From IMG/VR virus record IMGVR_UViG_2563366883_000018: a stretch of DNA of 18,760 nt; one strand, written 5' to 3'. The notes beneath the pieces were generated by a model. The model ran no database searches. It saw only the letters and a list, made by a program, of their open reading frames with translations, and was not told where the DNA came from. Numbering within the stretch: position 1 is the first letter of the stretch; each line of letters begins with the position of its first letter. The position numbers and the translations under genes are program-made. This document shows, one piece after another, positions 3,308 to 18,760 of this stretch. The stretch comes from a virus (Duplodnaviria > Heunggongvirae > Uroviricota > Caudoviricetes).

Positions 3308-3883
3308 CTACGGCAGTGCTGGCCATTCAATATCCTGTGCAGTTGACGTATCAACACGGTTCAGCAATACCCGATACTTTTTCCATGCTTCCAGCAACGA
3401 GATTTCTTCCTCCGTTGCAATTTCCAGATCTGCAGCATCCTGAAGCGGCGCAATATGCTCACTGGCTACCTGCATCAGGTTGTTTTTTGTTTCTTCCGCC
3501 TCCCGGATCCGGAACAGTTTTTCTGCTTCCGTATCCTTCACCCAGGCTGTGCCGTTCCACTTCTGAAACTCCCCTTCCGGGGATAACCAGGTGACATTTT
3601 CCGGTAATGGGCCAAGTTCAGAAATAAATAACGCGTCGCCGGAAGCCACGTCATAGACGGTTTTACCCCGATGATCTTCAACGAGATGCCACGATGCCTC
3701 ATCACTGTTGAAAACAGCCACGAAGCCAGCCGGAATATCTGGCGGTGCAATATAGGAACTGTTTGCTGGCAGACCTGTATGAGGCGGAATATATGCGTCA
3801 CCTTCACCAATAAATTCATTAGTTCCTGCCAGCAGATTATAAATTTTTATGGTCCGTGGTTGTTCACTCATTCTGAATGCCAT
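3308..3883 (-). CDS. tfaQ: Tail fibre assembly protein (Tfa family), 191 aa
   Basis: ORF track 3308..3883(-); ATG at 3883-3881 overlaps the stf stop by 1 nt (TAATG), indicating translational coupling; lambda Tfa-like sequence. Confidence 0.9.
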
Positions 3884-6798
3884 TATGCAAGCCTCACAAT
3901 GTAGTTAAATGCGATGTTTTTGACAGTGTTTTCCGCGTTACCAGCAGCGTTAACGGTGATGGTGTGTCCATGTGAGCCAATCGCAACAGAGTGCGTATGA
4001 GCACCAATACCGACAGTATGTGCGTGAGCACCTGCAGATGCAGCTGTGCCGCTGACACTATGAGTGTGCGCTCCTGCAGCACTTGTATTCACACTGGCCG
4101 CAGACACTACCTTATGTACTGACCCATTTTGTGACCACTGGCTGACTGCTGATGCGCCTGTGACACTATGAGTATGGTTTCCGGCACTTGCGGCTGTACC
4201 GCTCACACTGTGCGTATGCGCCCCGGTGTTATTCGTGGATTTAGTGCCGTAATCAAACGACGATGTGGTTTTCGTCCCCAAATCCGTACTGGATGCACTG
4301 GCGCTGTGGGTGTGCGATTTAATGCCGTCCTGTTCCTGAGATAATACGGCCCGACCACTGGCAGGTTTGCCCTTAATCGTCCAGCCACGCATATCAGGGA
4401 TCACGCCTGACGGATAAGCGGTTGCAAGTTTCGGGTAAGCGGATTTGTCAAAAGTCTGCCCCTGCATCAGGGCATAACCAGACGGAACGGTATCTGATGG
4501 CCACGGGATTGGTGCGCCAGGCGGATAAAACTGCTCTGATGGCGTATAGAGTGAATAAACTGTACCGTCCGTTAACCCTTCCGGCTTATTAGCAGAATAT
4601 GCTGGTGACGTATGAATAGTCACGCTGGCATTACTGGTATAATCCCATTGAATATTTACACCAGTCGCATAATTTCCGATTGCAACGTAAATATCGTAAG
4701 TATCACCAGATGTATTGACCCAGGCAAAATTTGTAAACCCTGTCGATGTGCGCTGCCATAAAGCACCAGTAATCCCCTTCGGATTACCATTACCTGCACG
4801 CAAAACAAGTTCAGATATACCTGCCTGTTGAGGTGACCCCACGTTAAATCCCGCGCCACCAATCAACGTAATTGAAACAACAGAACTCGCCTGTGGCATG
4901 GTTACCGTTGCTAATTTGAACCAACCAGCACCACCGCTGAAGGACATTGTTGTTGAGTTAAGCGTACCAATATCTTTCGGCGTCAGTGTTATATCCGCTG
5001 AAAGCGCCTTACCATTCACCTTACGGGCAGAAGGTACCCGACCATTCGCATTATCATTAGCTGCTTTCACTGCTTTCGGTGTCGCGGCAAGCGTTTCAGA
5101 TGCGCTGTTGGTTGCACTACTGAGCTGGACAATTCCTTTTTGTGCTGTCGTAGCGTCCTGAGCAGTATATTTCCCGTTAGCAAGGTCATAGGCTGCCTTT
5201 ACCGACTTTGGCGTTGCCGCCAGCATTTCAGATGTGCTGTTGGTCGCGCTGCTGAGCTGAACTATCCCTTTCTGTGCTGTCGTTGCATCCTGTGCGGTGT
5301 ATTTCCCGTTAGCCAGCTCATACGCGGCCTTAACGGCTTTTGGCGTTGCCGCCAGTGACTCGGAAGTGCTGTTAGTCGCACTGCTGAGCTGTACTATCCC
5401 CTTTTTCGTCGTGCTCGCATCCTCAAGCGCCACGGCGGATGCAATATCCTCTGCCCGTTTTGCCGCTGTCTCGGCGCGCGTTGCCGCGGATTCCGCCGTA
5501 CTTTTGCTCTGAGCTGCCGCCGTCGCACTGCCAGCTGCCTCTGTCGCCTTCGTGGATGCCGTCGTGGCGCTGCCCTTTGCTGCTGACGCCTGTCTGGTCG
5601 CCTCATCTTTTGAAGCAGACGCAGATGATGCCGATGACGCCGCCGAACTGGCGGACGATGCGGCAGCCGTTTTTGAGGATTCTGCGCTGGTTTCCGACGC
5701 TTTCGCGTTCGTCTCGGATGTCTTCGCTGCGGAAGCAGACCTCGCTGCTGCGCTGGCCTGTTCAGTGGCTTCGCCAGCCTTCGTTGTGGCTGTTGAAGCG
5801 GACGATGCGGCGCTTTCTGCCGATTTTCCGGCAGCGGTGGCACTGGCTGAGGCCTGCCCGGCACTTGTTGACGCGGCACTGGCAGACGACGCAGCCGCTG
5901 TTTTTGAGCCTGCCGCAGCTGAGGCGCTCTGTCCCGCTGCCGTCTCAGAAGACCTGGCGTTCGTCTCGGACGTTTTTGCCGCCTTCGCGGAATTTGCTGC
6001 CGCCGTTGCCGAGGAAGCTGCGCTACTGGCGCTCGAGGATGCGTTCGTTTCTGATGATTTTGCCGCCTCTTTTGAAGCCGACGCATCCCGGGCTGAGGTG
6101 GCAGCTTCTGACGCTTTCGTAGTCGCGGTGGATGCAGAAGTGGCGGCTGATTGTTGTGACGCTGCAGCATTCGTTTCTGACGTTTTCGCGGCAGCGGCAC
6201 TGGTAGCTGCCGCGCTTTTTGAGGACTCTGCAGCGGCAGCACTTTTTTCCGCTTCAGTGGCCTTTGTTGATGCCGTTCCTGCGCTGGAAGACGCTGACTG
6301 AGCCGACGAAGCGGCCTGTCCGGCTGACGTGCTGGCTGCACGTGCTGAATCTGCAGCATCAGTCGCATGGGTTGCCGCCTCACGGGCAGATGTGCCGGCA
6401 TCACTGGCTGACTTCTTCGCGGCTGCCGTGTTCTGTGCCACCACGGACGCGTTACGCGCCACCTCTTCCACCATCTGTTCAAAACGGCGCAGTGCCTCCG
6501 GACGGGCATCATCCTCCGTCATGGCACCGAGAAAATCATTCAGCGTACCGGGTTGAGAATCTTCATACACGGTGATGGTCCCGGCATGTGACGGCGGGAA
6601 TCCTTCCACCAACAGAATAACGCTGTACTGCCCGTACTCAACGTCCATGCTGTAACGCCCGGCTTCATCCGGATTTTCTGAGGCCAGCGTGTTCACCACC
6701 ACCGTGGTGCTGTTACGTTTTGCTTTCAGCTGGATTGTGCAGTTCTGTACCGGTTTTCCTGTGCCATCTTTCAGTACACCTGAAATCTTTACTGCCAT
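3883..6798 (-). CDS. stfQ: Side tail fibre protein, full length (about 971 aa from ATG at 6798): lambda-Stf-like N-terminus, long Ala/Ser/Thr-rich central region, three tandem fibre repeats, His-rich HTHS C-terminal domain
   Basis: ORF track 3883..6804(-) begins with GTG; the ATG two codons in gives [26 protein letters not shown] (lambda Stf N-terminus as recalled) and is preceded by GGGGTGA; C-terminus ...[39 protein letters not shown] matches the lambda Stf C-terminus. Confidence 0.9.
5040..5410. repeat. Three tandem copies of a repeat of about 129 bp inside stfQ, encoding ...[44 protein letters not shown] (third copy degenerate)
   Basis: Visible in the protein (three near-identical 43-aa units) and in DNA (e.g. 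5091-5210 versus 5221-5340); boundaries approximate. Confidence 0.8.
5420..6470. repeat. GC-rich low-complexity region of stfQ encoding the Ala/Ser/Thr-rich segment; source of several spurious long alternative-frame ORFs
   Basis: Protein shows reiterated [18 protein letters not shown] motifs; DNA is dominated by GCNGC triplets; boundaries approximate. Confidence 0.7.
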
Positions 6799-6814
6799 AT
6801 TCACCCCACAAAAA

Positions 6815-6836
6815 AGCCCGCCTGAACCGGCGGGCT
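6815..6836 (-). terminator. Rho-independent terminator on the minus strand downstream of the lom fragment: 7-bp GC stem (6816-6822 with 6829-6835), then a T-run on the minus strand
   Basis: Minus strand reads ACAGCCCGCCGGTTCAGGCGGGCTTTTTTGTGG; the T-run overlaps the stf ribosome-binding region. Confidence 0.6.
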
Positions 6837-6862
6837 GTCATAACACTGTGTTACCTGGCTAA

Positions 6863-7300
6863 TCAGAACTTATAACCGACACCCACGATGAAACCGTCAG
6901 TGCGCCAGTCGCCACTGCCGGAGCCTTCATAAGCAATATCAATGGCCACGGATTCGGTCGGGTTAAACTGCACGCCAGCTCCCCACGCCAGAGACGTGTT
7001 GCTGTGGCGACCGTCATCACTTCCGGTCAGCACGTCGTGCGTTTTCCCCTTGTTGTCAGTTACGCGGAGATAATCCCCGGAGAAAGTCGACACACGGCTG
7101 TAAGCCATACCCGCCATCGCATACGCGCTGAACCATTCATTCACGCGCACAGACGGCCCCACCATCACGCTGAACCAGCGGTTACGCACGGAATCTTCAT
7201 GCCAGCGGGTATCGCTGTAACGGGTAAGCTGGCGATTCTTGTCTCCTGCATAGCTGCCGGACCCTCCATCCAGAATGACGCAATACGTGAACGCCGGGGA
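6863..7300 (-). pseudogene. lom: C-terminal fragment of a Lom/Ail/PagC-family outer-membrane beta-barrel protein; N-terminal part and signal peptide absent
   Basis: ORF track 6863..7189(-); frame stays open upstream to a stop at 7301-7303; translation ...[22 protein letters not shown]...AYEGSGSGDWRTDGFIVGVGYKF matches lambda Lom from about residue 85 to its C-terminal F. Confidence 0.75.
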
Positions 7301-8259
7301 TCACCATAACGACTGCCATCTGCATTGATGGATTCACCATCCCGTAACCAGACCCCACGTCCGTTCAGCTCGCGTTTTTGTTCAGGCAAAATCCGTCCTG
7401 AACAGGAAGGACACTGAATATAAGCCGCCTCACTTGCCAGCACAGGATCGGCAATATCACGGAAACCAGCAACCACATCGCCGCAGGGCTGAAAATACTC
7501 ACCACAGTGTGGACAGGGCCAGTACCAGCGACGGCGATCGCCACGGTTATAGAGCGACAGGATCCCCGTGGTTGGTGGAGCCTCATGCGGTGAAGTCCGT
7601 CGCCATTTCACATCCTTCACATCCCTGCCGGGGGAACTCTCCACCAGCGTCATACCACTGGACATAAATGTGGTGGTACGTTTTGAGGCAAGAGAGAAGG
7701 CATCCCCCTCACCATCAATATCTTCCGGAAAACGGTCATAATCCGTCAGCGCCACGCATTTATAATCTGATGAAGACATGATATTGACTGACGGCCAGCC
7801 GATTTTCAGGTAGTTGCCAGCAAGGAATGTTCTGTCATAAACGTTGTTGTCATTTTTGTTCGGACTCAGGCGACTGACCACTTCCGGGCTGACGCGAAAC
7901 GTTCTGGCGAGTCGTTTTTTGGAGTGTTCGCGGGCTTTTTCCTCCGTCATCTGAATGATCAGCATATCAGCAGGATCGCAAATCACGTTGTAAATCACCC
8001 AGCCGTCAATCAGGCCGATAGTCTTGCCGGTTCGTGCCGGGCCAACAAATATCACTGCGTCGTATTCACGCGAGGCCAGGCAGTTCATAGGCTCAATAAC
8101 ATACGGTGCCACCAGCGGATCCCACGGGACTGAGTTCCCTGCCCCCATAGGCACCCGCATATACTGAGCAACGGCATCAGCAACCCGCATTCGTCTCGGT
8201 GCGCGAAGGATATAACCTGAATCGGTTCGTGCTGCCTTTGCGGTTTCCTGATTCAGCAT
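7165..8259 (-). pseudogene. N-terminal fragment of a GpA-family large terminase subunit; the last ~40 codons of the ORF are out-of-frame lom sequence
   Basis: ORF track 7165..8259(-), 364 aa; P-loop GPARTGKT and CPHCGE zinc-finger-like motif as in lambda gpA; lambda gpA is about 641 aa, so the C-terminal half is missing; ATG at 8259 overlaps the nohA stop (TAATG). Confidence 0.8.
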
Positions 8260-8753
8260 TACTCCTCCTGCTGTAATTCCTCCTCATCATCCGCACCTGC
8301 TTCAGTCACCCGCAGGGCTATCTGATCGCGCAGATCATCAATAATGGACTGAACACGGCTCACAGCGGCAGGCTGCAGACCGCAGTCACGTTCAAGAATA
8401 TCCGGTAATGTCTCCAGCACCTGCACGACCGCTTTTGCCCAGATGGCAAACTCCCGTCTGACATCACTGGCCGGAATGAGTTGTGCCGTTTCCTGTTCGA
8501 ACTTAAGACGCTCACGTTCAGACTGATACCAGGCTTTGCGCTCATGCGCGTCCATTTCGCCTTCTGCAACCGGCGGTGGTAATGCCAGAAATGCCGACAC
8601 AATATCAACCACCCGATAAAGCTTGAGGTTGCTTTCATGCCCCCCTGCAACGGGTAGATTTTGCAGCCTTGCCGCAGCAGTCTGGCGATGTACACCTGAC
8701 AATGCCGCCAGTTGACTGATATTCAGCGTCAGATTTTTTAACTCTCGATCCAT
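8259..8753 (-). CDS. nohA: Terminase small subunit (Nu1-like), 164 aa, with N-terminal HTH
   Basis: ORF track 8259..8753(-); N-terminal HTH-like [24 protein letters not shown], acidic C-terminus; position immediately downstream of a cos-like site and upstream of the large terminase; the gene symbol rests on position and on a recalled NohA/NohQ identity. Confidence 0.8.
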
Positions 8754-8899
8754 ACCCGCTCCAGAATGTTTTAAACATGTATCTTGCGAACAACTTTAGG
8801 CAAACGGTGTTAGTGATGAACAAAAAACAATCAGAATCGACACCATAAAAATAAAACCACTGTAATATCAATCAATTACAGTAGTGGTGATGACGAATA

Positions 8900-8968
8900 A
8901 AATTTCAAAAACTAGCCTTTTTCCGCGACGCTCCCGCCCCGTGGCAGGGGCCCCCACCGGGAGGACCC
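8900..8968 (-). other. cos site of the lambdoid prophage (cosQ-cosN-like segment, with cosB presumed between it and nohA)
   Basis: Minus strand reads GGGTCCTCCCGGTG-15 nt-GGGGCGGGAGCGTCGCGG...TTTTTGAAATTTTATTCGTCAT, paralleling the lambda cos junction GGGTCCTTTCCGGTG-15 nt-GGGCGGCGACCTCGCGGG...TGAAAATTTTCC...TTCGTCAT as I recall it. Confidence 0.5.
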
Positions 8969-8992
8969 GACAGCCTGACAGCCTGACAGCCG
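8969..8992. repeat. Three tandem copies of an 8-bp unit GACAGCCT (last copy GACAGCCG) next to the cos-like element
   Basis: Read directly from sequence. Confidence 0.8.
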
Positions 8993-9127
8993 TGATGAGC
9001 ATCTGATACAGCGCTTTACATAATGGCATAGGAATAATTCAGAAGGACATCACAGCATGCCCACACAAATTAGTGTGAGTGTCCTGTTTCTTCCTACGCA
9101 CAGGACTGACGAGCATGAGGGGAAAAT

Positions 9128-9295
9128 ATGCGAACCATAAATGCCTCATCTTCAGCAATGCAACCGGCATCCGAACAGGACGATATTGTAAATTCACCTA
9201 ATTACGAGGACATTGCAGTAGTTGAATTGCAGCTCTGTATTAGCCTGACAGTGACAGAATGCGATATTGACTCTGTCACAGGTGAAATAGTTTGA
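9128..9295 (+). CDS. Hypothetical acidic small protein, 55 aa (below the ORF-track threshold)
   Basis: ATG at 9128 preceded by GAGGGG (9117-9122) with 5-nt spacing; TGA at 9293-9295; no recognisable domain. Confidence 0.3.
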   Translation: MRTINASSSAMQPASEQDDIVNSPNYEDIAVVELQLCISLTVTECDIDSVTGEIV

Positions 9296-9315
9296 ATGAT
9301 TAGCAGTTATGGTGC

Positions 9316-9522
9316 TCAGTCAACCACCAGGGAATAATCCTTCGAATTCTTATCGTGCTTCACCAACGCTGCCTCAATTGCCCTGAATGCTTCCAGAGAC
9401 ACCTGATGTTCTATACATGCAATTACAACATCCGGGTAACTCATAGAAATGGTGCTATTAAGCATATTTTTTACACGAATCAGATCCAACGAGAGTTCAT
9501 CAGCAGATTGTTCTTTATTCAT
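9316..9522 (-). CDS. Hypothetical prophage protein, 68 aa
   Basis: ORF track 9316..9522(-); ATG start with upstream GGAG at 7-nt spacing; lies between nohA and ydfO, where K-12 Qin has ynfO, but I cannot confirm identity. Confidence 0.45.
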
Positions 9523-9822
9523 TTTGTCGCTCCATGCGTTTGCTCGTCATCTAGCGGTTAAAATATTACTTCAAATCTTACTGCATAAAAGAGGAAAAGT
9601 ATGAAAGTTTGAGTACATCGACCTTACATACATCTGTCGGTTGCATATCCCTCCTGGATGCCAGCAAGGCTCAATTTTGTTACGCAATCAACACTATTCA
9701 TTAAAAACAGGCTTAATATTTGACATAAATCATCAACAAAACACAAAGAGGTCAGACCAGATTGAAACAATAAACACGATAATGCTAACTACGCGCCATC
9801 GTATCACATGGAAGGTTTACCA

Positions 9823-10254
9823 ATGGCTCAGGCTGCCATTTTTAAAGAAATATTCGATCAAGTGCGTAAAGATTTAAACTGTGAATTATTTTATTCTGAG
9901 CTAAAACGTCACAATGTCTCACTTTATATTTACTATTTAGCCACAGATAATATTCACATTGTGTTAGAAAACGACAACATAGTGTTAGTAAAAGGACTCA
10001 AAAAGGTTGTAAATGTTAAATTCTCCAGAAACAAACATCTTATAGAGACCTCCTATAATAAGTTGTAATCAAAAGAAATCACATTTCAACAATACAGGGA
10101 AAATCTTGCTAAAGCAGGAGTTTTCCGATGGGTTACAAATATCCAGGAACACCAAAGATATTACTATGCCTTTGATAACTCATTACTATTTACTGAAAGC
10201 ATCCAGAAAATTACTGAAAGCATCCAGAAAACTACACAGATCTTACCACGCTAA
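9823..10254 (+). pseudogene. ydfO: YdfO-like (DUF1398-type) prophage gene interrupted by an in-frame TAA at 10066-10068, with an in-frame 21-bp tandem duplication near the 3' end
   Basis: ATG at 9823 preceded by GGAAGG; the frame is continuous from 9823 to TAA at 10252-10254 except for the single stop; the segment after the stop reads ...[44 protein letters not shown]..., which looks like genuine protein sequence. Confidence 0.65.
10190..10231. repeat. Perfect 21-bp tandem duplication (TTACTGAAAGCATCCAGAAAA x2), in frame within ydfO ([14 protein letters not shown])
   Basis: Read directly from sequence. Confidence 0.9.
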
Positions 10255-10405
10255 ACCATAACGTCTGGCTTCTCTCACTCCTGAGCCGGACTGCATTGGT
10301 TTAATAAAAACCATCAACAATTGTGATTTAGATATTCGGAACCATTCAAATATAACAAAACCCCGTAAAAACGAGGTTTATGGATAAATTTTATTATTGA
10401 ATACA

Positions 10406-10579
10406 TCAGATTAAATTAATCTTGACATCATAGCTTTCAAGACCCGTCATTTTTTCCCGTGCGGTAAACTGAATACTGGTAACTTCTTTCCCGGTCTTTT
10501 TCTTAAGTTCAATAATTTTTTTTGTTATATATTCAGAAATATCTGCTTCTGCTTTTGTTTTTAAGTCTTCAATATTCAT
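10406..10579 (-). CDS. gnsB: GnsA/GnsB-family small protein, 57 aa (below the ORF-track threshold)
   Basis: Manual translation of the minus strand: MNIEDLKTKAEADISEYITKKIIELKKKTGKEVTSIQFTAREKMTGLESYDVKINLI; GAGG 5 nt upstream of the ATG; length and sequence fit recalled GnsB. Confidence 0.8.
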   Translation of the reverse strand: MNIEDLKTKAEADISEYITKKIIELKKKTGKEVTSIQFTAREKMTGLESYDVKINLI

Positions 10580-10750
10580 CATTTCCTCTTTTAGTCTGTT
10601 ATGACTTTCCAGTTACACAGTAAGTCGATTATATGGTGCAAACGTGTAAAAGATAAGATGAAACATCGCAATAATCAACATACGATAGTCTAAATTTTAC
10701 ACAAACAGACAAAGAGAATTTTCCTGAATTATCAATGCAATAGCATCAAA

Positions 10751-10981
10751 TCAACTCAAGAGCCTTATTGCTGCTTCCAGAATTTCTTCTGAAGTAACAT
10801 GTCGATCCGCGGCTACATAAATGACTTTATGATCTCCGGTCAGAGATGGAAACCCTGCGGCCATTACAGTAAGGTGTGTTTTTTCGCCATTTGGATATTC
10901 ACGCATGATGGTGTTAACTCCAGTCATCGCTGGCACTACCACTGCTGGTTCAGAGTTAAAAAAAACTATGATTTTTTTCAT
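10751..10981 (-). CDS. Hypothetical prophage protein, 76 aa, immediately upstream of gnsB (possibly ynfN/YmcE-like)
   Basis: ORF track 10751..11023(-); the internal ATG at 10981 (MKKIIVFF...) gives 76 aa; identity with ynfN not confirmed. Confidence 0.5.
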   Translation of the reverse strand: MKKIIVFFNSEPAVVVPAMTGVNTIMREYPNGEKTHLTVMAAGFPSLTGDHKVIYVAADRHVTSEEILEAAIRLLS

Positions 10982-11252
10982 GATGTTACCGTAGTATGTG
11001 AGTATCCATCGAATAGACACCAAGCAAAAAAGCTCCCGAAGGAGCCTTCATTTTCACTTTTTTAAATCCAACGACAGACGGCTGGCATTTAAGTATTGTG
11101 AAATATTATCAAATGTAATCATCATTGATTTACAAAAGATACATTTTGCCCCGAAAGGATTCATGTCAGAAACATCAAAAGATGATGTTCTATACTGGGA
11201 ACCATGACAACACGGGCATCTAAAGTGAATATGGTTTGTAATATTGTCTACC

Positions 11253-11465
11253 TCAAAGCGCCACTACATGAACAGCGGCAGGACCTTTAGGTCCGTTCTC
11301 AATACCAAATTCAACTTCCTGATTCTCAGTTAATGTTTTGAAATCGTTGCTCTGAATTGCTGAGAAATGGACAAACACATCTTTGCTGCCATCTTTCGGC
11401 GTGATGAAACCAAAACCTTTTTCAGGGTTAAACCATTTCACTAAACCAGTCATTTTGTTAGACAT
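11253..11465 (-). CDS. cspI: CspA-family cold-shock protein, 70 aa
   Basis: ORF track 11253..11465(-); [13 protein letters not shown]...KGFGFI...FVHFSA cold-shock domain with RNP1/RNP2 motifs; followed on the minus strand by a long AT-rich leader (11466 to about 11650). Confidence 0.93.
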
Positions 11466-11826
11466 AATTATTACCTTTTGAAGAAATTAGCCCTTGGGCA
11501 GAATGGTCCGAAAAAAATATCAGAGAGAAAAACCAACAAGGAAATCTCAAGAGGTACAAATAATAAAATTATAACAATGACTGCTTCAGATAAATTTGTA
11601 ACAAACCAGAACACCATTAACGCATGATTAACCACCCATAGCAAGGATTACTTTTGTAAAGAAAAACACAGCAATGAAAGAATAGCTTTATTTATTAATA
11701 AAACGTGTCATTCTGATTAAGACCTTTTATCTTACCCTTAAGATTTCAGGAATTTTGGCTCATGGAAGAGTCCTTTTTATTCAAATTTTACATTCCGCGA
11801 TGTAAATGTTCCGATTTAATATTACC

Positions 11827-12850
<1,024 letters not shown>

Positions 12851-12854
<4 letters not shown>

Positions 12855-13162
12855 AGATATTTATGATGAGGACGCTCGTGCTTATTGGCAGGATTTTCAA
12901 TCTTAAAGGAGTACTGATGCTGCAGATAAGACTCAACTTTTTCTGACAATTTTTCTGCTACTTCCAGGAAGACTTGCCGGACGCTCCTTCTGGCTGCTGC
13001 CTCATAAAACTCCAGCGCAGCTCCTTCAACACGGTCCATGGCGACATCCAGGTCAAAAATTTCACCGTCAAAGCGTTCTTTGTCCTGTAAGGCTACAGTT
13101 ACCGTAACTTTATTCTCAAAATTACGGACTCCTTTCACAACCAGTTCATAGTCTTGAGTCAT
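12851..13162 (-). CDS. ydfR: Prophage protein of unknown function, 103 aa, between holin and endolysin
   Basis: ORF track 12851..13162(-); ATG start with GAGGAGAG 7 nt upstream; recalled YdfR. Confidence 0.8.
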
Positions 13163-13166
13163 TGGA

Positions 13167-13382
13167 TTACTCTCCTCTCGCAGCCTTACGCCTGTCTTCT
13201 TTAATCTTGAAATAAAGATTTGTCAGATACGTCAGCAGGCCAAAAACCAGGCTACCCAGCACACCGATTGCAGCCCACTGTGACGGAGTTACTTTATCGA
13301 GTAACTGCAATGCCCAGAAACCAGCATTACCCGCCGATGTGCCATAGGCAACACCTGTTGTTAACTTATCCATTGATTTCAT
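13167..13382 (-). CDS. essQ: Class II holin, phage-21 S-type pinholin, 71 aa, with dual-start motif MKSM
   Basis: ORF track 13167..13457(-); the internal ATG at 13382 gives [71 protein letters not shown], near-identical in pattern to recalled S21. Confidence 0.9.
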
Positions 13383-13601
13383 ATCCTCACCCCGATGTAC
13401 ACGGATGGTGCAATATGTTTGAAAAGATCGGAGTCTACGGGGTAGTTTTGACAGCACACGTTGTTCTCAACGGCGCTAAAAAAACATACACATTAAAAAT
13501 ATGGGTAATTATTTTGAAAGAAAGTCATATATAAAATAATAATACGAGAAATGTTTTCATATTTAGTGTACTGTATACGGCCATTTATACAGGAAAAGCC
13601 T

Positions 13602-13772
13602 ATGTCAGAACGTAAAAACTCAAAATCACGCCGTAATTATCTCGTTAAATGTTCCTGCCCAAACTGCACCCAAGAGTCAGAACACAGTTTTTCAAGAGTA
13701 CAAAAAGGTGCCCTTTTGATCTGCCCTCATTGCAACAAAGTATTCCAGACAAATCTTAAAGCTGTAGCCTGA
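13602..13772 (+). CDS. Small zinc-ribbon protein, 56 aa (CPNC ... CPHC)
   Basis: ORF track 13551..13772(+); the internal ATG at 13602 is preceded by AGGAAAAG; two CxxC pairs; diverges from the late operon. Confidence 0.55.
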   Translation: MSERKNSKSRRNYLVKCSCPNCTQESEHSFSRVQKGALLICPHCNKVFQTNLKAVA

Positions 13773-13825
13773 TTGATTTTATTAGTAACAAGTATTTTTT
13801 ATATTTTAATAATATATTTAAAGCA

Positions 13826-13853
13826 GATAATAAAAAACCCGCCTGAGCGGGTT
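13826..13853 (-). terminator. Rho-independent terminator hairpin (stem AACCCGC/GCGGGTT, loop CTGA) with a strong T-run on the minus strand; weaker on the plus strand
   Basis: Minus strand reads AACCCGCTCAGGCGGGTTTTTTATT; about 280 nt downstream of the cspB stop and 60 nt downstream of the zinc-ribbon ORF. Confidence 0.55.
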
Positions 13854-14135
13854 TGAGATTGTGGTGCTTTTTGTGGGAGTCATCCACTTACGCACTTTGT
13901 TTTGCCATGCCAGCAGTTAGCTTCTGCTGTAAAACTATTCAGGCAGCAAACCTGCACTTCACCACAATGGTTAGCATACTTTTCCTGATTAAGATTTTGC
14001 CAAATATGCTAGCCATTGTTTCATGTATTGGACCTCCTTACTTTTTATTAAAGAGATCCAATATTCACTACTCTGTCCGTATCTCTACTCAGGCATCAGC
14101 CTTCTTCGTTATCGTATACAGACGAGCGATGAATT

Positions 14136-14351
14136 TTAATCAGTAATGATGACATTTGCTGCTGCAGGACCTTTAGCACCACTCTCTATAGAGAAGGTAA
14201 CCTTTTGACCTTCAAATAAGGTTCGATAATTATCATTCTGAATCGCAGAAAAATGCACAAACACATCTTTACTACCATCAACAGGAGAAATAAAGCCGAA
14301 ACCTTTATCAGCGTTAAACCATTTTACTAAACCAGTCATTTTATTTGACAT
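14136..14351 (-). CDS. cspB: CspA-family cold-shock protein, 71 aa
   Basis: ORF track 14136..14351(-); [21 protein letters not shown]... cold-shock domain. Confidence 0.93.
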
Positions 14352-14651
14352 TCTACATTCCTTAACTTGAGCCTTTCGGCATAAATGGTTTGCATAACAG
14401 AAACGACTTCGTACTTAATTGGAGAGACTCAAAGAAGGAATAAGTGAATAACACCTGAAATGAGAACTGCTTTAGTAAACTACTTCGTATATCGTCTGTT
14501 CTTCAAACCGACGCAATCATTAACGCATAGTTGAACATATGAAGCAATGTTTATTTTAGACATCCAGCCATCTTCAACCCCATCAAAAAACTATAGCTTT
14601 CTTCAGGAACGTGTGTATAGTGCGCCAAGTTATCAGTATTAAGGAATTTTT

Positions 14652-14864
14652 TTGTCCCGTAAAATGACAGGAATTGTCAAAACCTTTGACGGCAAAAGCG
14701 GCAAGGGCCTTATCACCCCATCCGATGGTCGTATCGATGTCCAGCTTCATGTTTCAGCGCTCAATCTCCGCGATGCAGAAGAAATTACCACCGGATTACG
14801 CGTGGAATTTTGCCGGATAAATGGTCTGCGTGGCCCTTCAGCTGCCAATGTTTACCTTTCATGA
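14652..14864 (+). CDS. cspF: CspA-family cold-shock-like protein, 70 aa, divergent from cspB
   Basis: ORF track 14652..14864(+); apparent TTG start (MSRKMTG...); cold-shock domain with a divergent RNP region. Confidence 0.85.
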
Positions 14865-14918
14865 GCTATATTAAAGCTTTAATTTCAGGCCCCATCGGAT
14901 CACACATGGAGAGTTTTT

Positions 14919-15008
14919 ATGAATAACCCCGTCTGTCTTGATGACTGGTTGATTGGCTTTAAAAGCTTATGCTGTACTTTGGCCGTAATAGCTCTGCTAA
15001 TAATATAA
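14919..15008 (+). CDS. Candidate small hydrophobic protein, 29 aa ([29 protein letters not shown])
   Basis: ATG at 14919 preceded by GGAGAG at 5-nt spacing; hydrophobic C-terminal half; no homology known to me. Confidence 0.25.
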
Positions 15009-15156
15009 TAAGCAGACTCATTGTGTTTAGGGACATTGTACTGGAAGAAAACATTTTAAACATCAGGCAAATAACCAAGTCACCAGCTAAATAATAAGTT
15101 AACAGACATGAGTCCCGGGATGAGATTCAACATTACCATTGCCCCATTTAAAGCAC

Positions 15157-15192
15157 AAAACCCGCTCATCAGCGGGTTTTCTACTTTTTCTT
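15157..15192. terminator. Bidirectional rho-independent terminator (stem AACCCGCT/AGCGGGTT, loop CATC) between convergent cspF and quuQ; on the minus strand a candidate tR'
   Basis: Plus strand hairpin followed by TTTTCTACTTTTTC; minus strand hairpin followed by TTTTGTGCTTT. Confidence 0.6.
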
Positions 15193-15225
15193 AGCGTCGG
15201 GTATACAAAGCCCATCGTTGAAAAA

Positions 15226-15254
15226 ATTTTATCCATATTTTTTGAAAAATGCAA
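15226..15254 (-). promoter_or_regulatory. Candidate Q-dependent late promoter (pR'-like): -35 TTGCAT, 17-bp spacer, -10 TAAAAT on the minus strand
   Basis: Read from sequence; lies 32-60 nt downstream of the quuQ stop and about 40 nt upstream of the terminator hairpin. Confidence 0.4.
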
Positions 15255-15285
15255 ACATCATGTCGCCATCTTCAGCAAAAATCAT

Positions 15286-16038
15286 TTATCTCGTCACCTT
15301 CCTCAATTGCGCTTCCGCGTATGCTTCTTCCTGCCAGCACTTTGTTACCAGTTTACCAATGACGTCCGCATACCCCTTATACCACTGATAATCGGTCAGG
15401 TCTGGTACCAGCTTCTGGACATGACGTCGTGCCAGCGTGGTCGGTAAACGACTAAACCGGTTTCCATTACAACGCCCACAAATCTTATATACCGGTACGC
15501 CATGAAACCGGGTTCTTTTTTCATCCAGAACAATCCCTTTACCCTTACACCCTCTGCACGCTGTGCTGGCTTCGCCCTTACCATGGCAATGCTGACATAG
15601 TTCCTTCACCCATTCTTCCTTGATTACAGATTCCCCGCGTCTGTAGTGTTTCACCACTTCGCGCAATACATTATAAAATCCCGTACCTGAACAATGCTCA
15701 CAGCGAGCCTTACTTGCCGCAGACCTGGAGTAATCAGCAAAGGCAAAACTCACGAGGTAAGGAATAATCTGTAACCGGATTTCTTCACTCAATTTGTTCA
15801 ATGTCGGGTTATCCAGTGCCATCGCGTAATTTAGCAGGCCTTCAATCGCAAACTGAGGGTCCTGAACACCAACTTTTGCCAGAAATAAGGCCAACCCAAG
15901 TGGTGCTTTCGACTGCACCATCCCCTGCGCTGCCATTACATCCGTAATTGTTAAACAACCGGTGCCTGCCGCTGGAGCGTCATCGCTCAATTTTGGAGAT
16001 TTTGGGGAGTAATATTTTGGTAAGGCTTCAAGGTTCAT
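15286..16038 (-). CDS. quuQ: Late-gene antiterminator Q-like protein, 250 aa
   Basis: ORF track 15286..16068(-); the internal ATG at 16038 is preceded by GGAG and gives 250 aa; several CxxC pairs (CEHC, CQHC, CRGC, CGRC). Confidence 0.88.
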   Translation of the reverse strand: MNLEALPKYYSPKSPKLSDDAPAAGTGCLTITDVMAAQGMVQSKAPLGLALFLAKVGVQDPQFAIEGLLNYAMALDNPTLNKLSEEIRLQIIPYLVSFAFADYSRSAASKARCEHCSGTGFYNVLREVVKHYRRGESVIKEEWVKELCQHCHGKGEASTACRGCKGKGIVLDEKRTRFHGVPVYKICGRCNGNRFSRLPTTLARRHVQKLVPDLTDYQWYKGYADVIGKLVTKCWQEEAYAEAQLRKVTR

Positions 16039-16051
16039 GCTCGTTCTCCAC

Positions 16052-17101
16052 TTACGCCAGTACGCCAATTGCCAGCGCGCGATCGATAAAACGAAATATC
16101 AGCTCCAGTTGGGAGCCATACTTATCTTCAAATGCCACTGTATCCGTATGCAGCTCGTTGTGATGCTTTCTGCACAAAGGCAACACAAAGAGATCATGTG
16201 CTTTTGTTCCCATTCCGCCCTGCCCGTGACCAATCAGATGATGCGGATCGTCGGCTGGCATACCGCAGCAAGCACACGGCTGTGTCTTAACCCAACGTGT
16301 GTATTTCTCCTTAACCCAGCGGCGACGTTTAGGCAGCTTCATGAAAGATTCCGGAGACTCTGGATCAACGGTGATGCTTACCACCGTCTTTTCCTGTGGT
16401 GATTTTTGTTGCTGGTGGGCGTAAGGCAACGGTGCAAGATTTTTTGTGCGTTGTTTCAATATGCTGGTGGCGGTCTGCTCTCCCGGTACGATGTCGCTTT
16501 CGCGGTACACCGAGCAGATTTTTTCCGCTGGTAATCCCAGCGAACGACGCGATACAGCCTCAGGTAGTGCATCCACCACCTGATTGCAGACCGCCCACCA
16601 GGATAATTCAGCCAAAGATAATTCCCGCTCCTGCGTACCGCTTATTGCGTGACGGATGACGTCAATCACCCATGCTGTCAGATTTTGTTGAGCAAGCAGC
16701 TCCAGTGATTCCGATGTCTGGTCACGCAGTTGGTTGTCGCAGTGCCAGCACAACACCATTGCGCCGGTACCATAACGGTGAATGACTGTTTCAGTGTGAT
16801 GGTAATCGCCATTAGGCCACTGGCAGGATGTAACATGACGTAATAGCCAGTCGGACAATGCGCCAACGCCGCCAGCAGCACGAATCACCCGTTCGTTACT
16901 AAAAAACGGCAGCAATGTTTTGTCTTCCGCCAGCGGCTGGCGAACGGCAGGAACGACTCCGGATGGCAGATTACGCATGCTTTTTGGTTCCGGTTCCACC
17001 AGCACTCGAGGATTATGAAATATCTGTATGGATTCACGGCCCGGCTTAAGGACCACCAGCCCAAGCTCAGGCACCAGAACAGGTCTAAGTAATACCCGCA
17101 C
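16052..17101 (-). CDS. ydfU: DUF968-family prophage protein, 349 aa, with C-terminal Cys/His HNH-like motif
   Basis: ORF track 16052..17140(-); the GTG at 17101 gives the 349-aa length I recall for YdfU and sits 1 nt after the upstream ORF's stop; C-terminus CACCG...HHLIGHGQGGMGTKAHDLFVLPLCRKHHNELH. Confidence 0.8.
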   Translation of the reverse strand: MRVLLRPVLVPELGLVVLKPGRESIQIFHNPRVLVEPEPKSMRNLPSGVVPAVRQPLAEDKTLLPFFSNERVIRAAGGVGALSDWLLRHVTSCQWPNGDYHHTETVIHRYGTGAMVLCWHCDNQLRDQTSESLELLAQQNLTAWVIDVIRHAISGTQERELSLAELSWWAVCNQVVDALPEAVSRRSLGLPAEKICSVYRESDIVPGEQTATSILKQRTKNLAPLPYAHQQQKSPQEKTVVSITVDPESPESFMKLPKRRRWVKEKYTRWVKTQPCACCGMPADDPHHLIGHGQGGMGTKAHDLFVLPLCRKHHNELHTDTVAFEDKYGSQLELIFRFIDRALAIGVLA

Positions 17102-17102
17102 G

Positions 17103-17381
17103 TTACCTCCAGATCCGTTGCTGGAAAGTGCGGGACGCACGTGGTGGGCGTTCGGAATAAGGCAGCCTGACAGAGATTATCCAGTGCCGATAGTCGAGAC
17201 TGAGAGCTTTCTTAACCTCGAACCCGCGCCTGCGGTAAGAATGAATCAGCCATTCGGCCTGTTCTGCAGTGCATGGAGGGTGCTGGAACCATTCAGACTT
17301 GAATGCGTGAGAATACCGCCCGTGCGTGCAGGCAAGAACGGGCGAATTATCAGAATTGTAATATTTTGCGTTGCGTGCCAT
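17103..17381 (-). CDS. Hypothetical prophage protein, 92 aa
   Basis: ORF track 17103..17381(-); ATG start with GGAG 8 nt upstream; stop abuts the ydfU start. Confidence 0.6.
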   Translation of the reverse strand: MARNAKYYNSDNSPVLACTHGRYSHAFKSEWFQHPPCTAEQAEWLIHSYRRRGFEVKKALSLDYRHWIISVRLPYSERPPRASRTFQQRIWR

Positions 17382-17447
17382 CGGTTTTCTCCGGTGGCAC
17401 GGTGTTACTCAGCGGGAGTTCAGCCCCGCGCAAGATTGTAGATGAGT

Positions 17448-17699
17448 TTATTCTCCTGAAAAAGCAGAAAAGCCAGCTTTTATTCCGATCTCTTTCAATG
17501 CCTGTAATGAAGTGACAAACTCACCTTCGCGCAAGATAAATCCGTCCGTGACCCGAGCATCCACAAAATTAATTAACGCAGCCCCATTCTTTCGCAAACA
17601 CATAATGCGGTAATGACTAACAAGATTTCCATTTTCAACGCACACAGCATAGAGGCCATCTTCACAAAAAATTTTACGCAGTTCTTCGATGTTCATCAT
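17448..17699 (-). CDS. Hypothetical prophage protein, 83 aa (position and length fit K-12 rem, sequence identity not verified)
   Basis: ORF track 17448..17699(-); begins MMNIEEL... Confidence 0.6.
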   Translation of the reverse strand: MMNIEELRKIFCEDGLYAVCVENGNLVSHYRIMCLRKNGAALINFVDARVTDGFILREGEFVTSLQALKEIGIKAGFSAFSGE

Positions 17700-17814
17700 C
17701 AGAATCCTTCCGGATAATTAGCTCTCCCCTTTAAGGGACCATCCCTCTTATCCCTGCGCGCTACTTAAGTATTTTTGATTCTATTCCGGCACCGTCCAGA
17801 ACTTCAAACGCGTT

Positions 17815-17847
17815 GAAAATAAAAACAAAAACCCGCCGAAGCGGGTT
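17815..17847 (-). terminator. Rho-independent terminator of the relB-relE-hokD operon (stem AACCCGC/GCGGGTT, loop CGAA, then a long T-run on the minus strand)
   Basis: Minus strand reads AACCCGCTTCGGCGGGTTTTTGTTTTTATTTT, about 70 nt downstream of the hokD stop. Confidence 0.65.
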
Positions 17848-17915
17848 AAGTGCGGGTGCGTTGAGGATGCCTGCCACATCAGAGGTGGCGAGGGATTTCT
17901 CCCCCGCCGGGTCTC

Positions 17916-18071
17916 TTACTCCTCAGGTTCGTAAGCTGTGAAGACAGCGACCTCCGTCTGGCCGGTTCGGATTCGTACCTCGCAGAGGTCTTTCCTCGTT
18001 ACCAGTGCCGTCACTATGACGGTTAAACAGATGACGATCAGGGCGATTAACATCGCCTTTTGCTGCTTCAT
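17916..18071 (-). CDS. hokD: Hok-family type I toxin, 51 aa (below the ORF-track threshold)
   Basis: Manual translation of the minus strand: MKQQKAMLIALIVICLTVIVTALVTRKDLCEVRIRTGQTEVAVFTAYEPEE. Confidence 0.9.
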   Translation of the reverse strand: MKQQKAMLIALIVICLTVIVTALVTRKDLCEVRIRTGQTEVAVFTAYEPEE

Positions 18072-18142
18072 AGCCTGCTTCTCCTGTCAACGCAAAGCAG
18101 AAGTGTCACCTTCGGTGCGAAACAGAGATGTCATGCTTTGGT

Positions 18143-18430
18143 TCAGAGAATGCGTTTGACCGCCTCGCTATATACTTCCGAGCGTTCTCTTTTCCCAACA
18201 GAAATCACGAAAACGACAACTTTCTCGTCTATAACCTGGTATACAAGGCGATAGCCTGAAGACCGGAGCTTAATCTTGTAACAATCAGGCATACCACGGA
18301 GCTTGTTTGCTTCAATCCGGGGTGACTCAAGTACTTCAACCAGCTTCTTTTTCAACTGTTCACGTACCGTCGAGCCCAGCTTTCGTCATTCCTTTAGTGC
18401 CCGCTCGTCAAAATCCAGAAAATACGCCAT
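18143..18430 (-). pseudogene. relE: relE mRNA-interferase toxin gene with an in-frame TGA at codon 15
   Basis: Minus strand from ATG 18430: MAYFLDFDERALKE-TGA-RKLGSTVREQLKKKLVEVLESPRIEANKLRGMPDCYKIKLRSSGYRLVYQVIDEKVVVFVISVGKRERSEVYSEAVKRIL; the stop occupies 18388-18386 where recalled K-12 RelE has Trp; the ORF-track 70-aa ORF is only the part after an internal TTG. Confidence 0.85.
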
Positions 18431-18666
18431 CAGAGTTCATCCAGCGTCACACGTACTGGCTTAGGATTACGAAGCCGTTCTTTCACTATCTCCACAAGTT
18501 CAGCATCTTCATCACTCAGGAGTGTCTGTTTGAACGGCAAGCGTTCATTGTCAGCGATATACTCGAGCATGAGACGAAGCGCTTCAGAAGGAGTTACACC
18601 CATTTTTTCAAGCGCGGCGTAAGAACGCGCTTTAAGTTCATCGTCAATACGCAGGTTAATGCTACC
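18430..18666 (-). CDS. relB: RelB antitoxin coding sequence (codons 2-79 plus stop); the native ATG is split by the IS1 end
   Basis: ORF track 18430..18681(-) starts at a TTG inside the IS1 inverted repeat; translation from codon 2 is GSINLRIDDELKARSYAALEKMGVTPSEALRLMLEYIADNERLPFKQTLLSDEDAELVEIVKERLRNPKPVRVTLDEL; the stop overlaps the relE ATG (ATGA). Confidence 0.85.
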   Translation of the reverse strand, partial: GSINLRIDDELKARSYAALEKMGVTPSEALRLMLEYIADNERLPFKQTLLSDEDAELVEIVKERLRNPKPVRVTLDEL

Positions 18667-18667
18667 C

Positions 18668-18760
18668 GGTAATGACTCCAACTTATTGATAGTGTTTTAT
18701 GTTCAGATAATGCCCGATGACTTTGTCATGCAGCTCCACCGATTTTGAGAACGACAGCGA
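18668..18760 (-). mobile_element. insB: IS1 insertion sequence, partial (terminal inverted repeat plus the last 26 codons of insB); continues beyond the window
   Basis: 18668-18760 reads GGTAATGACTCCAACTTATTGATAGTGTTTTATGTTCAGATAATGCCCGATGACTTTGTCATGCAGCTCCACCGATTTTGAGAACGACAGCGA, the canonical IS1 end as I recall it; the minus strand encodes ...SLSFSKSVELHDKVIGHYLNIKHYQ-stop. Confidence 0.9.

What the first reader, a model, noticed from the sequence alone, without database searches (positions are those of the whole stretch)
18660..18760. IS1 inserted exactly within the relB start codon, separating relBE-hokD from its native promoter and operator
The relB frame is intact from codon 2 (GGT AGC ATT...) but the preceding codon is CCG, and the sequence from 18668 to the window edge is a canonical IS1 terminal inverted repeat plus the insB 3' end. 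Only the G of the ATG remains. IS1 transcription runs in the same direction as relB, so read-through or an outward hybrid promoter could still drive relB-relE-hokD, but autoregulation through the native operator would be lost.
Basis: partly seen in the sequence, partly recalled or inferred. Interest (0 to 1): 0.6.

Follow-up and report, generated by a model that had tools for sequence, protein, structure and literature searches.

The report
IS1 beheads an already-dead relBE module
An IS1 insertion sequence sits exactly in the start codon of the relB antitoxin gene of a Qin-type cryptic prophage of E. coli, but the partner toxin gene relE already carried a premature stop before the insertion, so this is ordinary decay of a toxin-antitoxin module.

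Summary
Window 17900-18667 matches the K-12 Qin hokD-relE-relB region (minus strand) at every base but one. Homology stops at 18667, the G of the relB ATG. Bases 18668-18760 are the right end of IS1, 100% identical to an annotated IS1A-family copy. A related contig with the same junction shows a full 768-bp IS1, transcribed in the same direction as relB. The window ends there because IS1 repeats break the draft assemblies.

It is relE codon 15, TGG to TGA (window 18386), a premature stop. Two independent assemblies differ from the window at 1 of 10,525 bases. Both carry this stop together with an intact relB start codon, operator, ydfV and flxA. The toxin was therefore disabled before IS1 arrived.

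relB' now has no ATG, no ribosome-binding site, and no promoter-like site at the junction. The far side of IS1, with any target duplication or displaced promoter, could not be recovered. One scaffold hints at an adjacent deletion of about 6-7 kb.

Verdict: a real, lineage-specific IS1 insertion allele. It was found in 13 contigs and in none of 5,426 complete E. coli genomes. It is a known kind of event and of low interest.

The parts
18668..18760 (-). Right end of IS1: the 23-bp IRR at 18668-18690 and the last 25 codons plus the TAA stop of insB at 18683-18760. The window and contig edge falls inside the element.
   Evidence: 94/94 identity to an annotated IS1A-family copy. InsB C-terminus translation. 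Full 768-bp element with the same junction in L006. NCBIfam NF033558 for insA and insB of L006.
18430..18667 (-). relB' : the G of the ATG (18667), codons 2-79 and the TGA stop. The 'AT' of the start codon, the ribosome-binding site, the promoter and the operator are missing.
   Evidence: Identical to K-12 relB from the third base of the ATG. Translation. NF008412 RelB/DinJ antitoxin, 129.8 bits against a cut-off of 96. Operator 25-mer absent from the window at up to 3 mismatches.
18430..18681 (-). Mechanical 83-aa ORF (TTG start inside the IS1 IRR, one base after the insB stop; product MESLP-GSINL...). Gene callers report it as RelB. No Shine-Dalgarno sequence lies upstream.
   Evidence: ORF list. 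This exact product is called on 13 public contigs.
18143..18430 (-). relE pseudogene. Codon 15 is TGG to TGA (codon at 18386-18388, changed base 18386). The start overlaps the relB stop (ATGA), as in K-12.
   Evidence: Translation MAYFLDFDERALKE*. It is the only difference from K-12 in window 16900-18667. The allele is absent from all 1,247 complete E. coli genomes that have relE. It is present in all 10 junction-bearing contigs shown.
17916..18071 (-). hokD (relF), an intact 51-codon Hok-family toxin gene and the third gene of the K-12 relBEF operon. Here it has no known upstream promoter.
   Evidence: Identical to K-12 hokD. Co-transcription with relBE from one promoter is from PMC3598666.
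17830..17847 (-). Terminator-like hairpin followed by a T run, downstream of hokD; the likely end of the former operon.
   Evidence: Consensus scan. One such site is about what shuffled sequence gives, so this is weak evidence.

Best explanation
The window is the right-hand part of a Qin-type cryptic prophage of Escherichia coli, from ydfJ to relB. In one E. coli lineage the relBE-hokD module decayed in two steps.

Step 1 is shown. A G-to-A transition turned relE codon 15 (Trp, TGG) into TGA. This left an antitoxin with no working toxin.

Step 2 is shown. IS1 transposed into the AT-rich relB start region, and its IRR end now abuts the G of the ATG. This removed the relB start codon, ribosome-binding site, promoter and operator.

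The consequences are inferred. Because the toxin was already disabled, the insertion was selectively neutral. What remains is a silent or nearly silent relB'-relE'-hokD remnant.

A further step is inferred more weakly, at about 60-65%. The insertion was accompanied or followed by an IS1-mediated adjacent deletion, or by IS1-IS1 recombination, that removed the early region from about dicB to ydfV. If so, there would be no target duplication and no displaced promoter on the far side.
For: The junction and the IS1 identity are established.

The relE W15* stop is the only change from K-12 in 1,768 bp.

All 10 retrieved junction contigs carry W15*.

Order of events: L028 (GCA_052517665.1) and L031 (GCA_011881625.1) are each 10,524/10,525 identical to window 8143-18667. 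Both carry W15* TGA. Both also have an intact relB ATG, Shine-Dalgarno sequence and operator, with ydfV and flxA upstream and no IS1.

Neither the junction nor W15* occurs in 5,426 complete RefSeq E. coli genomes, so both are young and lineage-specific. All junction contigs are 100% identical to the window where they overlap, apart from one mismatch in L005.

No promoter-like site lies at the junction.

relBEF is one operon driven from one promoter; deleting that promoter abolishes its induction (PMC3598666).

Deletion hint: in scaffold KB732454.1 (L003) a 1,330-N gap separates the IS1 tail from a prophage exonuclease gene, which breaks off 385 bp short of its start. In the close relative L028 the same point is about 7.5 kb from the relB ATG. 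IS1 is known to make adjacent deletions that leave the element without direct repeats (PMC9330008).
Against: No contig crosses the far end of IS1. Simple insertion and insertion plus deletion therefore cannot be told apart.

The scaffold gap size is an estimate made by the assembler.

The order of events rests on parsimony. Precise IS1 excision, or recombination that restored relB in L028 and L031, would reverse it, but both are rare.

'Silent' is inferred from sequence only, with no expression data. IS1 fusion promoters and read-through are documented elsewhere (PMC9330008).

A UGA at a Trp codon can be misread by tRNA-Trp (background knowledge). W15* may therefore be a strong attenuation of relE and not an absolute null.
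Confidence: 0.8

Rival explanations
1. IS1 came first and the relE stop is a suppressor. In this account the insertion cut relB off from its start codon and promoter. Residual read-through still expressed relE. The unneutralised toxin then selected for the W15* knock-out.
For: The only substitution relative to K-12 in 1,768 bp is a relE knock-out. A random substitution has about a 1% chance (54 of 5,304) of being a nonsense or start-loss change in relE. W15* and the junction co-occur in all 10 junction contigs.
Against: Two assemblies that differ from the window at 1 of 10,525 bases have W15* TGA with an uninterrupted relB and operator. Early relE stops arise repeatedly in genomes with an intact relB: W15* TAG, E9* TAG, Y3* TAA and an IS3-family insertion. 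No antitoxin defect is therefore needed to explain the stop.
Confidence: 0.05
2. IS1 supplies transcription, by read-through from its own promoter or by an outward hybrid promoter. As a result relB' (from the TTG in the IRR), hokD or both are expressed constitutively and without RelB autoregulation. One possible outcome is an orphan antitoxin that neutralises plasmid-borne RelE.
For: insA and insB point toward relB. The relB' ORF opens one base after the insB stop. IS1 fusion promoters are documented (PMC9330008). The relB' and hokD coding sequences are still perfect. relBE-hok cassettes occur on plasmids: 90 plasmid places, and the F-like contig L025.
Against: No hexamer pair reaches 9 of 12 at or near the junction. 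The IRR's TTGGAG, 17 nt from TAACCT, scores only 6 of 12 by my own count on the sequence. There is no ATG and no Shine-Dalgarno sequence for relB'. The InsB frame is translated only after a rare frameshift, and IS1 insertions are classically polar (both background knowledge). The perfect coding sequence is explained by youth: the flank is identical to close relatives.
Confidence: 0.1
3. Assembly artefact. In this account the IS1 end was joined to relB by mis-assembly at a repeat, and the native locus is intact.
For: The window ends inside a multicopy repeat, and every available contig stops in or at the edge of IS1.
Against: The same base-exact junction was recovered independently in 13 contigs: at least 3 isolate assemblies, several ENA metagenome assemblies made with different assemblers, and a Logan contig. 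The junction lies 93-768 bp inside those contigs, not at their edges.
Confidence: 0.01

Closest known systems
relBE-hokD (relBEF) operon of the Qin cryptic prophage, E. coli K-12
   Same: Same genes, order and chromosomal setting (rem, ydfU and ydfT downstream; ydfJ at the prophage end). Identity is 1,767 of 1,768 bases over hokD-relE-relB and the downstream flank.
   Different: Here relB lacks its start codon, ribosome-binding site, promoter and operator because of IS1. relE also has a stop at codon 15.
Chromosomal hok/sok loci of E. coli K-12 inactivated by insertion sequences, point mutations or rearrangements (as summarised in PMC2654758)
   Same: A toxin-antitoxin locus on the chromosome or in a prophage is disabled by an IS element together with a point mutation, and the remaining coding sequence is still recognisable.
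   Different: Those are type I loci. Here the disabled pair is the type II relBE, and the IS sits in the antitoxin's start codon.
Decay of the chromosomal ccdO157 toxin-antitoxin system within E. coli (Mine et al. 2009, cited in PMC2654758)
   Same: Within-species erosion of a chromosomal type II module. The order seen here, toxin first, matches what I recall of that work, but I did not read that paper.
   Different: A different toxin-antitoxin family. Here the second hit is an IS1 insertion and not point mutations.
IS1 fusion (hybrid) promoters (Prentki et al. 1986, cited in PMC9330008)
   Same: An IS1 end directly abuts a coding sequence in the activating orientation.
   Different: A fusion promoter needs a correctly spaced -10 hexamer in the flank. 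None is present here.
IS1-mediated adjacent deletions by intramolecular replicative transposition (Turlan and Chandler 1995, cited in PMC9330008)
   Same: It would explain an IS1 flanked on one side by relB and, about 0.7 kb of unassembled sequence away on the other side, by the prophage exonuclease gene. The surviving IS then has no direct repeats.
   Different: It is not demonstrated here, because the far junction is not in any retrieved sequence.

Membership tests
IS1 (IS1 family insertion sequence) | An element of about 768 bp with imperfect terminal inverted repeats of about 23 bp | tested here: met
   L006 has the same junction and a 768-bp element with IRL and IRR matching at 18 of 23 positions. 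It is 764/768 identical to an annotated IS1A-family copy. The window itself holds only the last 93 bp, at 100% identity.
IS1 (IS1 family insertion sequence) | insA and insB' reading frames that encode the IS1 transposase | tested here: met
   NCBIfam NF033558 (IS1 family transposase) matches both frames of L006, at E = 7.5e-26 and E = 1.8e-42. The window encodes the last 25 residues of InsB.
IS1 (IS1 family insertion sequence) | An 8-9-bp direct duplication of the target flanking the element | not testable with these tools
   No contig crosses the IRL end. A scan of JGI metagenome contigs for the predicted far junction found nothing. The control scan for the known junction also found nothing, so the negative result is uninformative.
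RelBE type II toxin-antitoxin module | A RelB-family antitoxin gene immediately upstream of, and overlapping, a RelE-family toxin gene | tested here: met
   NF008412, 129.8 bits against a cut-off of 96, for relB'. TIGR02385 matches the K-12 RelE sequence, which I entered with Trp restored at codon 15. The ATGA stop/start overlap lies at 18430-18433.
RelBE type II toxin-antitoxin module | An intact toxin reading frame | tested here: not met
   TGA at codon 15 of relE.
RelBE type II toxin-antitoxin module | A translatable antitoxin gene with an autoregulated promoter and operator upstream | tested here: not met
   The ATG is reduced to G. The operator 25-mer is absent from the window at up to 3 mismatches, while it is present in K-12, L028 and L031.
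Hok family type I toxin (hokD/relF) | An intact Hok-type toxin reading frame | tested here: met
   A 51-aa ORF identical to K-12 HokD, WP_000813254.1. The NCBIfam Hok subfamily match is 48.5 bits, below its curated cut-off of 73. Identity to the annotated K-12 protein is therefore the basis for this call.
Hok family type I toxin (hokD/relF) | A cognate Sok antisense RNA and mok leader | tested here: inconclusive
   No Rfam family other than IS009 and two cspA elements reaches its gathering score in the window. From memory, K-12 hokD is described as lacking these elements.

The most novel reading that the evidence does not exclude
The remnant may not be inert. IS1 read-through plus reinitiation at the TTG one base after the insB stop could yield a low, unregulated level of a 4-residue-extended RelB. 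That protein could act as an orphan 'anti-addiction' antitoxin against the relBE-hok cassettes that circulate on F-like plasmids. Alternatively, UGA read-through by tRNA-Trp could regenerate authentic RelE at trace level in a cell that now has little or no antitoxin.
Probability: 0.04. Interest if true: 0.35.

Novelty: already known. Interest (0 to 1): 0.1.

Why it matters
It matters little beyond annotation. For this lineage relB and relE should both be flagged as pseudogenes. Gene callers currently report an 83-aa 'RelB' and a 78-aa 'ParE-like toxin'.

The locus is a tidy natural example of the expected order of toxin-antitoxin decay. The toxin is lost first, and the orphaned antitoxin is then free to be hit. 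The pre-insertion state is preserved in sister assemblies.

The by-product may be of more general use. Several independent early stops in relE occur in genomes with an intact relB. This suggests that Qin relE is frequently dispensable or counter-selected in natural E. coli, which bears on claims of physiological roles for chromosomal relBE.

Tried and rejected
1. I searched the junction in 5,426 complete RefSeq E. coli genomes. No record holds it in one piece. The 7 records with at least 80% coverage have IS1 beyond ydfV, which is a different site.

2. An exact scan for the 33-mer junction in GTDB species-representative genomes gave 0 hits.

3. I scanned JGI metagenome contigs for the predicted far-side junction (CATGGGTAGC, 0-3 further bases, then IRL), which allows duplications of about 7-10 bp. 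There were 0 hits. The control scan for the known junction was also 0. That collection simply lacks the lineage, so the test is void.

4. I tried to read across IS1 in related contigs. L003 has a 1,330-N gap. L004 and L005 end inside IS1. L006 starts exactly at the first base of IRL.

5. I considered Shigella as the source because of IS1 richness. This is not supported by what was retrieved: every source contig is a generic NCBI, ENA or Logan accession, and the flanks match E. coli genomes at 97-99.9%.

6. I first favoured the reading that the relE stop is a compensatory suppressor of the IS1 hit, based on the 1% chance argument. I rejected it once the sister assemblies with W15* and an intact relB were found.

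7. The promoter and terminator consensus scan and my own hexamer scoring found nothing at the junction.

8. Literature searches for relBE with IS1 found no description of this allele.

Full report
**What is at the coordinates**

relB, relE and hokD lie on the minus strand. Read in the relB sense, the sequence across the finding is ...CACTATCAATAAGTTGGAGTCATTACC|GGGTAGCATTAACCTGCGT....

Aligned with K-12 MG1655 (locus L001, annotated), window 17900-18667 is identical except for one base. The alignment collapses after 18667, which is the complement of the G of the relB ATG. K-12 continues with 'AT', the Shine-Dalgarno sequence, the operator and ydfV. The window continues with GGTAATGACTCCAAC....

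Window 18667-18760 is 94/94 identical to the end of a copy annotated 'IS1-like element IS1A family transposase' in strain MB20. Window 18683-18760 encodes the InsB C-terminus ending in TAA.

**Does the sequence beyond the window continue as IS1?**

Yes. I looked up the exact 83-aa ORF that gene callers make from this junction (TTG in the IS1 repeat, MESLPGSINL...). It returned 13 public contigs.
- L003 (scaffold KB732454.1 of GCA_000351025.1) and L004 (GCA_000326565.1) are 100% identical to window 8430-18760.
- L006, a 1,210-bp Logan contig, shows a complete 768-bp IS1. IRL (GGTGATGCTGCCAAC...) is at base 1, and the IRR end at base 768 abuts GGGTAGC.
- In L006 insA and insB read toward relB. 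Both frames hit NCBIfam NF033558. The element is 764/768 identical to the annotated copy, and its terminal repeats match at 18 of 23 positions.

The window stops where it does because short-read assemblies break in the IS1 repeat. L003 has a 1,330-N gap two bases beyond the window end. The recurrence of the same junction in isolate, metagenome and Logan assemblies rules out a chimeric assembly.

The single difference from K-12 in window 16900-18667 is at 18386, T in place of C. On the coding strand it changes relE codon 15 from TGG (Trp) to TGA. The frame reads MAYFLDFDERALKE*.

All 10 retrieved junction contigs carry this stop. None of the 1,247 complete RefSeq E. coli genomes that contain relE has it, because every hit to a 61-mer centred on the site has at least one mismatch. 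No complete genome has the IS1|relB junction either. Both lesions are therefore young and confined to one lineage.

**Which lesion came first?**

A random substitution in these 1,768 bp has only about a 1% chance (54 of 5,304) of knocking out relE. I therefore first suspected a suppressor selected after the antitoxin was beheaded.

Looking up the 78-aa truncated RelE ORF settled the question the other way. Two independent assemblies, L028 (GCA_052517665.1) and L031 (GCA_011881625.1), are each 10,524/10,525 identical to the window. The match starts exactly at the G of the ATG, and the only difference is at window 14708. Both carry W15* TGA. Both also have an uninterrupted relB with its ATG, Shine-Dalgarno sequence and operator, with ydfV and flxA upstream.

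These assemblies preserve the pre-insertion state. The toxin was stopped first, and IS1 later hit an antitoxin that no longer had anything to neutralise. The alternative, precise excision of IS1 in two relatives, is far less parsimonious.

The same look-up showed that early relE knock-outs with an intact relB are recurrent:
- W15* by TAG (L015);
- E9* (L017, L019, L026);
- Y3* (L023);
- an IS3-family element inside relE (L016, L018, L025, L027).

**Functional state of the remnant (inferred)**

relBEF is one transcription unit with one promoter, and deleting that promoter abolishes its induction (PMC3598666). That promoter and operator are absent from the window.

The consensus scan finds no sigma-70-like site at or near the junction. 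My own scoring finds nothing above 8 of 12, and nothing with the key -10 positions. The IRR's TTGGAG followed 17 nt later by TAACCT scores 6 of 12 by my own count.

relB' retains only a TTG inside the IRR, one base after the insB stop, with no Shine-Dalgarno sequence. InsB is itself translated only after a rare frameshift, and IS1 insertions are classically polar (both background knowledge).

IS1 fusion promoters do exist (PMC9330008), but they need a correctly spaced -10 in the flank, which is missing here. I therefore rate IS1-driven expression of relB' or hokD as unlikely (about 0.1), though not excluded.

One caveat applies. UGA at a Trp codon can be misread by tRNA-Trp (background knowledge), so W15* may be a severe attenuation and not an absolute null.

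**The far side of IS1**

This could not be recovered. A scan of JGI metagenome contigs for the predicted duplicated-target junction was negative. The control scan for the known junction was negative too, so the test is void.

The only indirect evidence is scaffold L003. Beyond the 1,330-N gap lies the prophage exonuclease gene, broken off 385 bp short of its start. In the close relative L028 that point is about 7.5 kb from the relB ATG. The interval holds ydfD, dicB, the dicA-like repressor, cro, ydaT, a DUF977 gene, ydfW, flxA and ydfV. In K-12 the distance from the exonuclease start to relB is about 4.2 kb.

About 670 bp of IS1 is missing from the assembly, so the gap leaves room for only about 0.7 kb more. 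If the gap estimate is right, about 6-7 kb next to IS1 has been lost. That is what IS1 adjacent deletions or IS1-IS1 recombination produce, and such events leave the element without direct repeats (PMC9330008). I give this about 60-65%.

**Comparison with what is known**

Every component is known:
- IS1;
- the Qin relBE-hokD operon, which PMC2654758 names as the prophage-borne relBE;
- erosion of chromosomal toxin-antitoxin loci.

[quoted passage not shown] Orphan antitoxins are reported as abundant in E. coli (PMC10790755). I found no paper that describes this particular allele.

As a RelBE module the locus fails two defining features, an intact toxin frame and a translatable, autoregulated antitoxin. 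It should be filed as a relBE remnant and not as a working module.

**Verdict**

This is an ordinary, recent, lineage-specific pseudogenisation in a cryptic prophage. The kind of event is already known, and the interest score is about 0.1.

Noticed in passing
window 18386 (relE codon 15); loci L015, L017, L019, L023, L026, L016, L018, L025, L027, L028, L030, L031: Independent early knock-outs of Qin-type relE with an intact relB recur in public assemblies: W15* TGA, W15* TAG, E9* TAG, Y3* TAA, and an IS3-family element inserted near codon 19. All were found through a single look-up of one truncated ORF, so the true frequency is probably higher.
   Followed up: partly
L025 (GCA_014104215.1 contig JABXRP010000004.1), 5844-10467: The flxA-ydfV-relB-relE-hok segment of Qin sits on an F-like conjugative plasmid contig (psiB, psiA, traM, traA, traL, traE), next to transposase genes. 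The same IS-interrupted relB-IS-relE' segment also lies on a 4.4-Mb contig of the same assembly (L027), without the downstream hok gene. In one search, 90 of the relE matches in complete E. coli genomes are on plasmids.
   Followed up: no
window 18679-18685: The TTG that opens the 83-aa 'RelB' ORF lies one base after the insB stop codon (TAAgTTG). Gene callers therefore report an apparently intact RelB (83 aa) and a 78-aa 'ParE-like toxin' for what are two pseudogenes.
   Followed up: yes
window 4532-9745: This stretch has no counterpart in K-12 Qin. It holds a much longer tail-fibre ORF (3883-6804, 973 aa) and terminase-like ORFs (7165-8259, 8259-8753). The rest of the window is 98.7% identical to K-12 Qin.
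   Followed up: partly
window 3342-3540 (-), 11226-11610 (-), 14120-14512 (-): Rfam matches above the gathering score: the IS009 sRNA (inside the tfaQ-like tail fibre assembly ORF, 3308-3883) and two cspA-type thermoregulator leaders lying near the prophage's cold-shock-domain genes. These are ordinary features of Qin.
   Followed up: no
L003 8590-9919: The scaffold gap of 1,330 N between the prophage exonuclease gene and the IS1 tail is far shorter than the 7.5 kb seen in the closest IS1-free relative. This hints that the dicB-dicA-ydfV early region was deleted next to IS1.
   Followed up: partly
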